Shown: positions 11,674 to 30,561 of the stretch, in pieces
Layout: each line of letters starts with the position of its first letter
How positions within the stretch are numbered: the stretch's first letter is position 1
From: a virus
Direction: 5' to 3' (one strand)
DNA: 64,000 nucleotides
Virus record (IMG/VR): IMGVR_UViG_3300012943_000029
Location: 66,176-130,175 of that record
Translations under genes and position numbers: made by a program
Notes under the pieces: generated by a model
The model's database searches: none
What the model was told of the DNA's origin: nothing
Seen by the model: only the letters and a program-made list of their open reading frames with translations

Positions 11674-13005
11674 TTAGGTCCGACCAATCAGCATGAAGCG
11701 GTTGTACTGCGGAAACTGTCGGGTTCCTTCGTACAGGCTCTTCGACAGGTTCAGCTGCTTCTTGAGCTGGTAAACTGAACCAACGCAGGACACATGTCCT
11801 TCACCACCCACGAAGTCGTTGTTCTGAGCGATCACGATCTTCCCTTCTGGTATTCCCTCCCTCCACTTTGAGATGTCAGGGATATGCTCTGACGAGGTGT
11901 TGATGATAATGTCGAACTTCGAATAGTTGATGTCGTACATGTCCATCGTCATGGTCGTGAAGTCATAGTCGTAGTTCAGCTTCTCGGCGATGCGGTTGCA
12001 TCGAGCATCGAGGTCGACGCTGGTGATCTTAAGCTTCAGCTCCCATGTGTTCATCATGAGCGCGAGCGTACCGATCCAGCCACCTAGAACCGCAACGCTG
12101 GCTCCTTCCCTAATCTCGCCAGCCTTGAGAAGCTTGTCAAGTTCCTCAATCAGCCATAGCTTGCTGAGCAGCTGGCCGTCGGATAGGGCATCCCTCAGCT
12201 CGTGCATTGGTAGCTTCTCAAGAACATATTCATCGTAGAGCGCTGATGCCACTCTAGTGGTAAAGAACAGCTCGTGCTTCATTGGGTTGTCTTCCTTCGG
12301 ACGAGGGGATGTCTCATCGTCATACTGTGGATTGCGAGCGGCGAAGCCAGCCAGCATCAGGTCGTGGTCATTGATGAAGAGAAGGTCGTCCTTCGTGCGG
12401 CGCTTGGCCTCAGCCACACCGTCTTCTGCGCCCTCGATGATGTGCTCTCTGAACTCACACTCGACTGGGTTCAGCCAAGCATTGAGACGTTCCTGAGCCT
12501 CCGCCCTTATGAACTCATCAGCATGGGTCGTGGCCGTTGTGTGCAGCTTCACTGCCTCACGGTATGCGCCGCGATACGAACGAAATTGGTCTGAGTTGAA
12601 GCGCGTGACACACGACACCTGAGGAATGATCTTCACGTCCTTCGTCAGGGTTGTCGAGAAGTCTAGCTGTGACTGCACGTTCTTGAAGAAGTGTCTGTCA
12701 AACAGCTTTACACCGCCATACCCGTATTCCTGCCCAGTCGCCGGATTGATGGCGTACCAAATGTGAACGTACCCACCATTATACGGGTCTGGCTTGTAAC
12801 TGAAATCGAACGTATCGAGGATCTCAGCATCACCATCAACGACATAGAAGAAGCGGGTATGTGAACGAGTAGATGCCTCGATGTGGGCGTTCGCGATGCC
12901 CTTCACCCCGTGAACACGCTTCGCGTGTGGGAAGCGAGCCTTCAATCTTCGCCAGTTGTAGTCGGCGTTCGGCTCGTCGTATGATATGAAGATGATGTCC
13001 AGCAT
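11674..13005 (-). CDS. fusion: GT-A glycosyltransferase-like domain + class I SAM-dependent methyltransferase
   Basis: N-half FISYDE...VVDGD...GYGGVKL is paralogous to 23041-24009; C-half has VAVLGGWIG, SVDLD, IINTSSEH. Confidence 0.75.
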   Translation of the reverse strand: MLDIIFISYDEPNADYNWRRLKARFPHAKRVHGVKGIANAHIEASTRSHTRFFYVVDGDAEILDTFDFSYKPDPYNGGYVHIWYAINPATGQEYGYGGVKLFDRHFFKNVQSQLDFSTTLTKDVKIIPQVSCVTRFNSDQFRSYRGAYREAVKLHTTATTHADEFIRAEAQERLNAWLNPVECEFREHIIEGAEDGVAEAKRRTKDDLLFINDHDLMLAGFAARNPQYDDETSPRPKEDNPMKHELFFTTRVASALYDEYVLEKLPMHELRDALSDGQLLSKLWLIEELDKLLKAGEIREGASVAVLGGWIGTLALMMNTWELKLKITSVDLDARCNRIAEKLNYDYDFTTMTMDMYDINYSKFDIIINTSSEHIPDISKWREGIPEGKIVIAQNNDFVGGEGHVSCVGSVYQLKKQLNLSKSLYEGTRQFPQYNRFMLIGRT

Positions 13006-13010
13006 GCGGG

Positions 13011-13016
13011 TATTTA
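13011..13016 (-). promoter_or_regulatory. late promoter TAAATA, 5 nt from the ATG
   Basis: GCGG-TAAATA-CCCGC-ATG; no SD, so possibly leaderless. Confidence 0.5.
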
Positions 13017-13295
13017 CCGCCGCTTGAACCCGAAAACCCTCTCAAGAAAAGGACGATGATAGCTAAAGCGCAGCTTGTAGATTAAGCCGGCTGGCCCGCC
13101 CATAGGTTGCACGCCGACGATCATCTGTGCAATGGTTCCAGGCATTATCTTCCTGATCATCGGAATGATGCTCTTAAACGAGTTCGCCATGACGGGACGC
13201 GGCATGGCAACCTCAGTGGCGATGACCACCTTCGGCATAAGCGGAACAGCCGCAAGAGCTGCGGCCATCCCAAAGAATGCGCGTCGACTTACCAT
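13014..13295 (-). CDS. Tat-signal-bearing mini-protein containing a gp23 major-capsid (Gol-region) fragment
   Basis: SRRAFF plus hydrophobic stretch; IIPMIRKIMPGTIAQMIVGVQPMGGPAGLIYKLRFSY matches the gp23 signature. Confidence 0.7.
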   Translation of the reverse strand: MVSRRAFFGMAAALAAVPLMPKVVIATEVAMPRPVMANSFKSIIPMIRKIMPGTIAQMIVGVQPMGGPAGLIYKLRFSYHRPFLERVFGFKRR

Positions 13296-30529: not shown

Positions 30530-30561
30530 TATTTATACGTGCCGCCTGGCAGGCATAAATA
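30530..30561. promoter_or_regulatory. back-to-back divergent late promoters
   Basis: TATAAATA on the minus strand (30530-30537) and TAAATA on the plus strand (30556-30561). Confidence 0.7.

What the first reader, a model, noticed from the sequence alone, without database searches (positions are those of the whole stretch)
13014..13295. Stand-alone major-capsid 'Gol' peptide fused to a twin-arginine signal: possible immune-sensor decoy
Seen: a 93-aa ORF made of SRRAFF plus a hydrophobic helix (Tat-like signal), followed by IIPMIRKIMPGTIAQMIVGVQPMGGPAGLIYKLRFSY. Known: this matches the gp23 segment that in T4 is the Gol peptide (VRRAIPNLIAFDICGVQPMNSPTG), which binds EF-Tu and activates the Lit protease; capsid proteins are common triggers of abortive-infection systems. 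Nothing else of the capsid fold is present, and the gene is coupled to an RNA ligase gene in a translation-repair block rather than sitting among head genes. Inference: a membrane-tethered or exported mimic of the capsid epitope that titrates a capsid-sensing defence or EF-Tu, or alternatively a membrane nucleator for prohead assembly.
Basis: partly seen in the sequence, partly recalled or inferred. Interest (0 to 1): 0.8.

Follow-up and report, generated by a model that had tools for sequence, protein, structure and literature searches.

The report
Export-tagged mini copy of capsid segment
A giant uncultured T4-like phage keeps, under selection, a 93-residue gene that joins a bacterial export (twin-arginine) leader to a stand-alone copy of the most conserved stretch of its own head-shell protein; it belongs to an undescribed family in which the same leader also carries other pieces of the shell protein, and its job is untested.

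Summary
Window 13014-13295 (minus strand) is an intact 93-codon gene. Its ATG overlaps the stop of an Rnl5-type RNA ligase gene.

- **Architecture:** residues 1-26 look like a Tat signal (SRRAFF, a 16-residue uncharged core, Lys22, VIA|T). Residues 38-80 match Pfam Gp23 positions 3-45 of 376 (E 3e-11) and align to T4 gp23 94-133, the Gol stretch. A basic tail follows.
- **Selection:** two intact orthologues (63-68% identity) sit behind the same ligase with the same overlap. pN is 0.16-0.21 against saturated pS of 0.71-0.79.
- **Rate:** the resident capsid proteins of two of these phages are 96% identical, while their mini-proteins are 68% identical.
- **Family:** at least 46 sequence clusters from uncultured T4-like phages share the design. 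RR is invariant, and F and L/F follow in 44-45 of 46.
- **New here:** in relatives the same leader carries other gp23 excerpts (residues 217-287 and 416-463). Many copies lie 6 bases or less after a tRNA gene inside tRNA arrays.

I found no paper and no cultured phage with this design. This scan had already met the family on other genomes. The function is inferred only. The likeliest reading is a Tat-routed mimic of unassembled capsid protein that acts on a host factor.

The parts
13014..13295 (-). Mini-gene: 93 codons plus a TAA stop (P0001)
   Evidence: intact orthologues P0002 and P0003; purifying selection
13218..13295 (-). Residues 1-26: Tat-type signal peptide (MVSRRAFF, uncharged core A6-P21, K22, VIA|T)
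   Evidence: Seen in the sequence. RR is invariant and F / L-or-F / K follow in 44, 45 and 35 of 46 family members. Pfam TAT_signal gives 14.6 bits, below its cut-off.
13185..13217 (-). Residues 27-37: Pro-rich linker
   Evidence: alignments A2 and A3; pN 0.10-0.25 against pS 0.55-0.92
13056..13184 (-). Residues 38-80: excerpt of gp23 (N-arm / Gol stretch, T4 gp23 about 90-133)
   Evidence: Pfam Gp23 E 3.3e-11, profile positions 3-45; T4 alignment; 57% identical to the resident gp23
13017..13055 (-). Residues 81-93: basic amphipathic tail (HRPFLERVFGFKRR). It is not derived from gp23 and is shared with distant family members.
   Evidence: similar tails in P0069, P0056, the P0153 group, and P0089/P0187
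13293..13306 (-). Coupling site: GAGAAGGA, then the ligase TGA overlapping the mini-gene ATG (TGATG)
   Evidence: the same overlap occurs in L003 and L004
13295..14536 (-). Upstream Rnl5-type RNA ligase (N-terminal OB domain plus nucleotidyltransferase domain)
   Evidence: Pfam PF21189 E 1.9e-33 and PF09414 E 4e-20; PHROG 968

Best explanation
This is a working accessory gene of an uncultured T4-related phage of roughly 350 kb. Its product is a small pre-protein with four parts: a twin-arginine (Tat) type signal peptide, a short linker, a stand-alone copy of the gp23 N-arm / Gol stretch, and a basic amphipathic tail. In T4 part of that gp23 stretch is flexible and unassembled until the head expands. 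Shown: the gene is intact, conserved and constrained over its whole length. It belongs to a family whose defining features are the RRxF(L/F)K leader and a capsid excerpt. The excerpt resembles the gp23 clade of the carrier phage. The same leader carries other gp23 excerpts in related phages. Inferred: in this clade the protein is made together with the RNA-repair enzymes by translational coupling to the ligase, and the leader takes it to the host Tat translocon. It therefore ends up at the inner membrane or in the periplasm. There it acts as a molecular mimic of unassembled capsid protein towards a factor that recognises that protein. The most plausible such factor is a membrane-associated host system that senses capsid protein (the Lit or PifA type), which the mimic would occupy or remove. 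I put Tat routing at about 0.7 and the anti-defence mimic role at about 0.3. The confidence given below is for the whole statement.
For: - **Real gene.** Two intact orthologues show 63-68% identity over the full length. pN is 0.16-0.21 against pS 0.71-0.79, and all four segments are constrained. Start/stop overlap with the ligase is kept in three phages.
- **Family.** 46 leader-bearing members were found among the proteins fetched, at 30-45% identity to ours. R4, R5, Q63, P64, M65 and P68 are invariant.
- **Leader.** RR sits at residues 3-9. The next positions are a small residue, then F (44 of 46), L/F (45 of 46) and K (35 of 46). An uncharged run of 9-23 residues follows (median 15, mean hydropathy 1.6-2.4). 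Basic residues right after the core would disfavour Sec export. This is the only such ORF in the 157-kb contig.
- **Mimicry.** The resident gp23 proteins of two phages are 96% identical, while their mini-proteins are 68% identical, so the mini-gene evolves like an accessory gene. Even so, the motif tracks the resident clade. Members from AT-rich phages are 60-82% identical to the AT-rich resident motif, against 45-55% to ours. A tree holding the mini-proteins as one clade is 40.9 log-likelihood units worse (AU p 0.03).
- **Modular cargo.** The same leader (86-90% identical) is joined to gp23 217-287 (Pfam E 1.3e-14, BLASTP E 4e-16; 13 distinct sequences in that cluster) and to gp23 416-463 (E 2e-5).
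- **Context.** The genes sit in RNA-repair islands or tRNA arrays. In T-even phages such loci counter defences that target translation (PMC13096335, PMC3014915).
- **T4 background.** T4 gp23 66-105 is disordered in the unexpanded head (PMC9546572). Gol binds EF-Tu and is the most conserved part of gp23 (PMC3014915).
Against: - There is no experimental evidence for export or for any target.
- Pfam TAT_signal reaches E <= 0.1 in only 6 of 47 members, and NCBIfam reports nothing for the three close orthologues.
- Some subfamilies lack a clean AxA cleavage site.
- A hydrophobic, unfolded passenger is a poor Tat cargo (my own recall of Tat quality-control work), so it may stall at the translocon rather than cross.
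- In T4 a free Gol peptide activates Lit, so a decoy must bind without activating.
- The host, and so its defence repertoire, is unknown.
- Neighbour genes differ between subfamilies, and these regions are general hot-spots for accessory genes, so association by location is weak.
- No cultured phage carries the gene.
Confidence: 0.4

Rival explanations
1. Head-assembly factor. The leader and basic tail hold the capsid excerpt at the cytoplasmic face of the inner membrane, possibly stalled on TatBC. There it binds gp23, the scaffold core or the portal, and so nucleates, times or limits prohead assembly.
For: In T4 the equivalent stretch contacts the scaffold core and the portal whiskers, and head-length mutations map to residues 94 and 97 (PMC9546572). 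The excerpt tracks the resident gp23 clade. All three excerpts seen (N-arm, spine helix, C-terminal strand) are elements of one capsid domain (the domain assignment is my inference).
Against: The gene lies far from the head genes, in variable accessory regions. It evolves about eight times faster than gp23 at the protein level (32% against 4% divergence). It was not detected in most relatives with closely similar gp23, of which more than 120 clusters are 78-96% identical but only 3 carry this form. A signal-peptide-like leader with a short core suggests export rather than cytoplasmic display.
Confidence: 0.15
2. Envelope-acting exported peptide. After Tat export and cleavage, the strongly cationic peptide of about 67 residues works in the periplasm. 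It could act in superinfection exclusion, in control of lysis timing, or as a membrane-active lysis helper. The capsid-derived sequence would simply be raw material that was reused.
For: The predicted mature part has 11 Lys/Arg against 2 Asp/Glu and an amphipathic basic tail. T4 makes small exported proteins for such jobs (RI, Sp, Imm; my own knowledge). One subfamily lies near an amidase gene.
Against: The residues conserved among the mini-proteins are the same ones conserved in gp23 (VQPM..P, IPMIRR). The cargo follows the resident gp23 clade. Other cargo variants are not cationic. These points indicate selection for resemblance to gp23, not for generic membrane activity.
Confidence: 0.15
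3. Binder of the translation or folding machinery. The Gol-like stretch binds EF-Tu (domains II/III) or GroEL, as the N-terminus of T4 gp23 does. It would tune or protect translation during infection, in concert with the RNA-repair genes.
For: Gol binds EF-Tu and inhibits its GTPase, and the gp23 N-terminus directs fusion proteins to GroEL (PMC3014915, PMC3012670). The gene is coupled to an RNA ligase here, and in relatives it sits among tRNA genes, Pnkp, and RF-1-like and YqeY-like genes.
Against: An export leader removes the peptide from the cytoplasm. The same leader carries gp23 excerpts that do not include Gol. EF-Tu is too abundant to titrate with a small accessory protein (inference).
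Confidence: 0.1
4. Tat-pathway blocker. An unfolded hydrophobic passenger behind a strong Tat leader jams TatBC and shuts down host Tat export.
For: A consensus leader is joined to a passenger that AlphaFold2 cannot fold with confidence (pLDDT 61). Unfolded hydrophobic Tat passengers are known to be rejected or arrested (my own recall).
Against: This does not explain why the cargo must be a gp23 excerpt, or why it keeps the invariant residues of gp23.
Confidence: 0.07
5. Decaying fragment of a duplicated capsid gene with no function.
For: It is short, and it covers only 43 of 376 profile positions.
Against: There are intact orthologues of the same length. Synonymous sites are saturated while pN is about 0.2. 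The leader and tail, which are not capsid-derived, are also conserved, and the coupling to the ligase is conserved. The family has at least 46 members.
Confidence: 0.02

Closest known systems
Gol region of T4 gp23 (residues 93-122) in the Gol / Lit / EF-Tu exclusion system of prophage e14
   Same: It is a homologous stretch: residues 42-81 align to T4 gp23 94-133 and keep the GVQPM..P core. In T4 this short peptide is active on its own.
   Different: In T4 the peptide is part of the full capsid protein. Here it is a separate gene with an export-type leader and a basic tail. Binding to EF-Tu and any relation to a Lit-like protease are untested.
Twin-arginine signal peptides of bacterial periplasmic proteins (for example SufI and TorA)
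   Same: An RRxF(L/F)K motif sits at residues 3-9, followed by a moderately hydrophobic core of 9-23 residues, a basic residue and Pro at the end of the core, and in this protein V-I-A before the predicted cut.
   Different: The leader is phage-encoded. The passenger is a capsid excerpt of 55-70 residues that is probably unfolded, not a folded cofactor enzyme. The score is below the curated Pfam cut-off.
gp24, the vertex paralogue of gp23 in T4-like phages
   Same: It is a second gene derived from the major capsid protein within the same genome.
   Different: gp24 keeps the whole HK97 fold, lies in the head module and is a virion protein. The mini-gene keeps about 11% of the fold and lies in an accessory region.
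Small exported accessory proteins of T4 (RI antiholin, Sp, Imm)
   Same: They are about 80-100 residues long, have an N-terminal export or anchor segment, and are accessory genes outside the structural modules (my own knowledge).
   Different: There is no sequence similarity. Those proteins use Sec-type or signal-anchor-release segments and carry no capsid-derived sequence.

Membership tests
T4-type major capsid protein (Pfam PF07068, HK97 fold) | Significant match to the family profile | tested here: met
   E 3.3e-11, 43.6 bits against a cut-off of 24.4
T4-type major capsid protein (Pfam PF07068, HK97 fold) | Covers the whole fold (P and A domains, about 376 profile positions) | tested here: not met
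   Only profile positions 3-45 are matched, and the protein has 93 residues. It is therefore an excerpt, not a capsid protein.
T4-type major capsid protein (Pfam PF07068, HK97 fold) | Encoded in the head module beside the scaffold and protease genes | tested here: not met
   The resident gp23, with the scaffold gene upstream, is at G000:C1:3058-4122. The mini-gene is at 79189-79470, in an RNA-repair block.
Twin-arginine (Tat) signal peptide | Consensus (S/T)-R-R-x-F-L-K near the N-terminus | tested here: met
   SRRAFFG in this protein. Across 46 members RR is invariant, F occurs in 44, L/F in 45 and K in 35.
Twin-arginine (Tat) signal peptide | Uncharged core of moderate hydrophobicity, then a c-region with a basic residue and a small-x-small cleavage site | tested here: met
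   The core is A6-P21 (16 residues, mean hydropathy 1.77), followed by K22 and V-I-A|T. The cleavage site is less clear in some subfamilies.
Twin-arginine (Tat) signal peptide | Score above the curated threshold of a Tat-signal model | tested here: not met
   PF10518 gives 14.6 bits against 22.7. Only 6 of 47 members reach E <= 0.1 (best 4.9e-5). NCBIfam gives no hit for the three close orthologues scanned.
Twin-arginine (Tat) signal peptide | Export depends on TatABC and on the RR pair | not testable with these tools
   Needs reporter fusions in wild-type and tat-deleted hosts.
Gol-type activator of Lit | Homology to T4 gp23 93-122 | tested here: met
   Aligned to T4 gp23 94-133
Gol-type activator of Lit | Binds EF-Tu domains II/III and makes EF-Tu cleavable by Lit | not testable with these tools
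   This is a biochemical property (PMC3014915). No computation was attempted with EF-Tu.
Pseudogene or gene remnant | No intact orthologues; no excess of synonymous over non-synonymous change | tested here: not met
   Intact orthologues exist. pN is 0.16-0.21 against pS 0.71-0.79.

The most novel reading that the evidence does not exclude
The family is a cargo-swapping counter-defence cassette. A constant Tat leader is recombined with whichever excerpt of the phage's own capsid protein the local hosts' abortive-infection sensors recognise. The leader then uses the ability of the Tat pathway to move bound partners, so that the sensor is dragged to the membrane or out of the cytoplasm. This would be immune evasion by eviction rather than by inhibition.
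Probability: 0.1. Interest if true: 0.9.

Novelty: categorically new. Interest (0 to 1): 0.68.

Why it matters
Capsid proteins are among the commonest triggers of bacterial abortive-infection systems. No phage counter-measure built from pieces of the capsid protein itself has been described in the papers I could search. The family gives a concrete and testable candidate: a short gene, a recognisable leader, and natural variants that carry three different capsid excerpts. It would also be the first phage use of the Tat pathway for a capsid-derived peptide. It adds to a pattern seen in this scan, where giant T4-like phages keep stand-alone mini-copies of virion-protein segments. If the function turns out to lie in head assembly instead, it would point to a membrane-linked step in building very large heads.

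Tried and rejected
- **Complex prediction.** I ran the mini-protein (residues 27-93, 47-row alignment) with the resident gp23 (residues 40-411, 40-row alignment). The result was no verdict, with score 0.00 in both runs and no controls run. This is evidence neither for nor against binding.
- **AlphaFold2 of the mini-protein** with the family alignment gave mean pLDDT 61 and pTM 0.26, with only short helices. It was too weak for a fold search.
- **ESM Atlas** gave no usable feature hit and only low-TM structural neighbours.
- **Megablast** of the 6-kb region against phage records found no match.
- **tblastn of three family members against 50,697 phage records** hit only full-length gp23 genes. 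The two hits annotated 'hypothetical protein' proved to be a normal 411-residue capsid gene (RsoM2USA) and a frameshifted capsid gene in an unverified record (CMSTMSU).
- **A conserved neighbour across the family:** none was found. The small ORFs coupled downstream in L094 and L097 are unrelated, and the large genes downstream in the window and in L008 are unrelated.
- **T4-type late promoter TATAAATA:** none lies near the gene, and there is only one in the window, at 30530. The sigma-70 and terminator scans were uninformative. Timing of expression therefore remains inferred from context.
- **P0004 (1194 residues, 19 'matches')** is a perfect tandem repeat that resembles the motif by chance. 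I discarded it.
- **The profile match that reads through the stop codon** is alignment noise. The read-through frame has no gp23 similarity.
- **Literature:** six full-text searches found no description of such proteins.

Full report
**The observation.** Window 13014-13295 (minus strand) is an open frame of 93 codons ending in TAA. It starts MVSRRAFF, continues with an Ala/Gly-rich uncharged run to Pro21, then Lys22 and VVIATE, a Pro-rich linker, the stretch FKSIIPMIRKIMPGTIAQMIVGVQPMGGPAGLIYKLRF, and a tail HRPFLERVFGFKRR.

Pfam Gp23 (PF07068) matches residues 38-80 to profile positions 3-45 of 376, with E 3.3e-11 and 43.6 bits against a cut-off of 24.4. PHROG 138, major head protein, gives E 2.9e-10. 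phmmer against the PDB aligns residues 42-81 with T4 gp23 residues 94-133 (entries 5VF3, 6UZC, 7VS5), which covers the 29-residue Gol peptide. No other part of the capsid fold is present.

The ATG at 13295-13293 shares one base with the TGA (13297-13295) of the upstream gene, and GAGAAGGA lies at 13306-13299. The upstream gene is an RNA ligase with an N-terminal OB domain (PF21189, E 1.9e-33; PF09414, E 4e-20).

**The genome.** The window is part of a 156,921-base IMG/VR contig estimated at 44% complete, so the phage is about 350 kb. Its real gp23 lies about 75 kb away, directly after a scaffold-like gene. The database form of this gp23 has 411 residues and starts MELFENW (P0252). The mini-protein is 57% identical to it over 44 residues (E 3e-16). 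A scan of all six frames of the contig found no other ORF with an RR leader followed by a hydrophobic run.

**It is a real gene.** A search of 5.8 billion proteins limited to 51-163 residues found two intact orthologues. P0002 has 94 residues and is 63% identical. P0003 has 93 residues, is 68% identical, and lies on a 358-kb contig. Both match over the full length. In both, the gene follows the same ligase with the same start/stop overlap.

Pairwise Nei-Gojobori counts give pN of 0.16-0.21 against pS of 0.71-0.79. Synonymous sites are saturated, so the ratio is below about 0.1. The leader, linker, capsid excerpt and tail are each constrained. The mini-gene is about as conserved as the ligase (68-77% against 69-80% protein identity).

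The resident gp23 of the 358-kb relative is 96% identical to ours (P0253). The mini-gene therefore evolves like an accessory gene and is not kept identical to gp23 by gene conversion.

**The family.** I built a profile from the three orthologues and searched 1.84 billion representative proteins. It gave 973 hits, most of them pieces of real gp23, but about ten short proteins matched from the leader onwards. A second word-index search with a 13-member alignment raised this to roughly 45 clusters at 90% identity, of 76-141 residues, on contigs of up to 358, 210 and 191 kb.

Among the 46 leader-bearing members:

- RR is invariant and lies at residues 3-9.
- The next four positions are a small residue, then F (44 of 46), L or F (45 of 46), and K (35), R (5) or G (5).
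- An uncharged run of 9-23 residues follows (median 15), with mean hydropathy 1.6-2.4.

This is the textbook Tat consensus (S/T)RRxFLK. The basic residues that follow the core (K22 here, KLLPKK in the largest subfamily) are typical of Tat leaders and are unfavourable for Sec export. That last point is from my own knowledge.

There are caveats. Pfam's short TAT_signal model scores 14.6 bits here against a cut-off of 22.7, and it reaches E <= 0.1 in only 6 of 47 members. NCBIfam reports nothing for the three close orthologues. Some subfamilies lack a clean cleavage site.

In the capsid excerpt Q63, P64, M65 and P68 are invariant, and P45, P52, G70 and F73 are nearly so. These are the same residues that are fixed in gp23 itself. 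Many members, including distant ones, end in a basic aromatic tail like ours, for example KKLPWWKKIFKRTK.

No cultured phage among 50,697 records carries such a gene, and six full-text literature searches found no description. This scan had already met the same design on other genomes (notes e1-5378204 and e1-5691478). My searches agree with those notes independently.

**New evidence: the cargo is exchangeable.** Searching IMG/VR with a 78-residue member (P0181) returned loci in which only the leader matched, at 86-90% identity over 23-29 residues.

- **Central excerpt.** In L100, from a complete 224.7-kb genome with terminal repeats, and in L101, the leader is followed by a different excerpt of gp23. 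It matches Pfam Gp23 positions 141-195 (E 1.3e-14). It is 41% identical over 71 residues to residues 217-287 of that phage's own gp23 (E 4e-16). By analogy with other capsid proteins of this fold, I take this to be the strand and long helix of the peripheral domain. This variant has 13 distinct sequences in its 90% cluster, all with an intact leader.
- **C-terminal excerpt.** In L104 the leader is followed by a copy of the C-terminal YAPYIPL block (31% identity over 48 residues to gp23 416-463, E 2e-5), joined to the end of the helix excerpt.
- **Unknown cargo.** In L105, from a complete 184.5-kb genome, the cargo shows no gp23 similarity.

Some variants even share the last residues (GELV) with members that carry the N-arm. 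The middle has therefore been replaced inside a constant frame.

**The excerpt follows the resident capsid protein.** Over a 40-residue window around VQPM, members from AT-rich phages are 60-82% identical to the resident gp23 of AT-rich genomes, but only 45-55% identical to our gp23. P0001 is 60% identical to its own gp23 and 53-55% identical to the AT-rich ones. P0002 and P0003 show no such bias. P0069, P0089 and P0187 group with a third gp23 type.

In a tree of these 40 columns the mini-proteins are interleaved with gp23 clades. Forcing them into one clade costs 40.9 log-likelihood units (AU p 0.03). With so few columns this is suggestive, not firm. Together with the exchangeable cargo, it points to a constant leader frame whose passenger is repeatedly taken from, or kept similar to, the phage's own capsid gene.

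**Context.** Coupling to the RNA ligase is confined to our three close relatives. Other members sit in different settings:

- beside unrelated genes (a glycosyltransferase, a metallopeptidase, an AdoMet decarboxylase near gp32 and gp59);
- about 2 kb from a polynucleotide kinase-phosphatase, and less than 1 kb from a 68-residue RF-1-domain protein;
- inside arrays of 17-21 tRNA genes, starting 6 bases or less after a tRNA. This is an 83-88-base tRNA-Thr(tgt) in L096, L097, L100, L101 and L105, a tRNA-Gln in L099 and a tRNA-Leu in L104.

In T-even phages, tRNA loci and RNA-repair genes counter defences that attack the translation machinery (PMC13096335, PMC3014915). The neighbourhood therefore fits a host-interaction role. 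These regions are also general hot-spots for accessory genes, however, so the association is weak evidence. I found no conserved protein partner.

**What the T4 literature adds.** In T4, residues 66-105 of gp23 are disordered in the unexpanded head. They probably face the scaffold core and later form the N-arm and N-fist. Head-length mutations map to residues 94 and 97, and Met98 touches the portal whiskers (PMC9546572). The N-terminus of gp23 directs fusion proteins to GroEL (PMC3012670). The Gol peptide binds EF-Tu domains II/III and makes EF-Tu cleavable by the Lit protease, and Gol is the most conserved part of gp23 (PMC3014915). A free Gol peptide thus activates Lit, so a simple 'titration' decoy would need to bind without activating.

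**Interpretation.** The mini-proteins lack the rest of the fold, yet they keep the residues that gp23 keeps and they resemble the carrier's own gp23. Selection therefore appears to act on likeness to gp23, or on binding whatever binds that stretch of gp23. The conserved leader argues that the protein is routed to the Tat translocon, and so to the inner membrane or periplasm.

Four features fit a host-interaction gene better than a core assembly gene: fast evolution, accessory location, patchy distribution and exchangeable cargo. My best reading is therefore a Tat-routed mimic of unassembled capsid protein that acts on a capsid-recognising factor, most plausibly a membrane-associated abortive-infection sensor.

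I hold Tat routing at about 0.7 and the anti-defence role at about 0.3. The rivals are listed with their tests: an assembly modulator, an envelope-acting peptide, an EF-Tu or GroEL binder, and a Tat blocker. A dead gene fragment is excluded.

**Attempts that gave nothing.** AlphaFold2 folded the mini-protein with low confidence (pLDDT 61). The one complex job, the mini-protein with the resident gp23, returned no verdict, and I do not count it either way.

**Verdict.** The family has no described counterpart. The exchangeable capsid cargo behind a constant Tat-type leader is, as far as I could find, new.

Noticed in passing
L100:1001-1276 (IMGVR_UViG_3300036770_007495, complete 224.7 kb), L101, L104:1001-1276, L105:1001-1177: The same Tat-type leader (86-90% identical over 23-29 residues) is fused to other cargo. 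The cargo is gp23 residues 217-287 in L100/L101, the C-terminal YAPYIPL block plus the helix end in L104, and a non-gp23 sequence in L105. The L100-type variant has 13 distinct sequences in its 90% cluster.
   Followed up: partly
L096:7908-8237, L097:7913-8261, L099:921-1267, L100:907-1276, L104:925-1276: Leader-tagged mini-genes start 6 bases or less after a tRNA gene inside arrays of 17-21 tRNA genes. After 3' processing of the tRNA, the mRNA would be almost leaderless. The adjacent 'tRNA-Thr(tgt)' is unusually long (83-88 bases).
   Followed up: partly
proteins P0015, P0025, P0063, P0137, P0189, P0192: Other stand-alone proteins of 88-94 residues carry the same gp23 N-arm stretch but have unrelated N-termini that are not Tat-like. 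Capsid-excerpt mini-genes therefore exist in several architectures.
   Followed up: no
P0004: A 1194-residue database protein made of 19 perfect tandem repeats scored 80 bits because each repeat contains ISPMIRDVMPAF. It looks like a translated satellite repeat and is not related to the family.
   Followed up: yes
window 13003-13016; L003:8338-8794; L006:388-911: In the window, the next gene (443 residues, 11674-13005) starts 8 bases after the mini-gene's stop. In the two orthologous loci, two extra small ORFs (82 and 65-87 residues) lie between the mini-gene and the equivalent large gene. One of them contains a Gly/Asn repeat of variable length.
   Followed up: no
L094:8478-9074, L097:6053-6661 and L097:8673-9611: HNH-type homing-endonuclease genes lie within 0.2-1.4 kb of the mini-genes in two AT-rich subfamilies. 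They could drive the exchange of cargo by recombination.
   Followed up: no
L094:5165-6052 and L094:7165-7371: A polynucleotide kinase-phosphatase and a 68-residue protein consisting of little more than an RF-1 GGQ domain lie just upstream of a family member. This is another translation-rescue neighbourhood, like the ligase block in the window.
   Followed up: no
L001:1480-2754 (G000:C1, resident gp23): The longest ORF starts at a TTG and gives 424 residues. The database form and all close relatives start 13 codons later at ATG (MELFENW, 411 residues). The likely maturation cut is after LQE, at residue 39 of that form.
   Followed up: partly
L115 (MH494197.1, Escherichia phage CMSTMSU, 284560-285732): The capsid gene of this 'unverified' record is split into three overlapping annotated ORFs. 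These are probably sequencing frameshifts, so it can be mistaken for a capsid-fragment mini-gene.
   Followed up: partly
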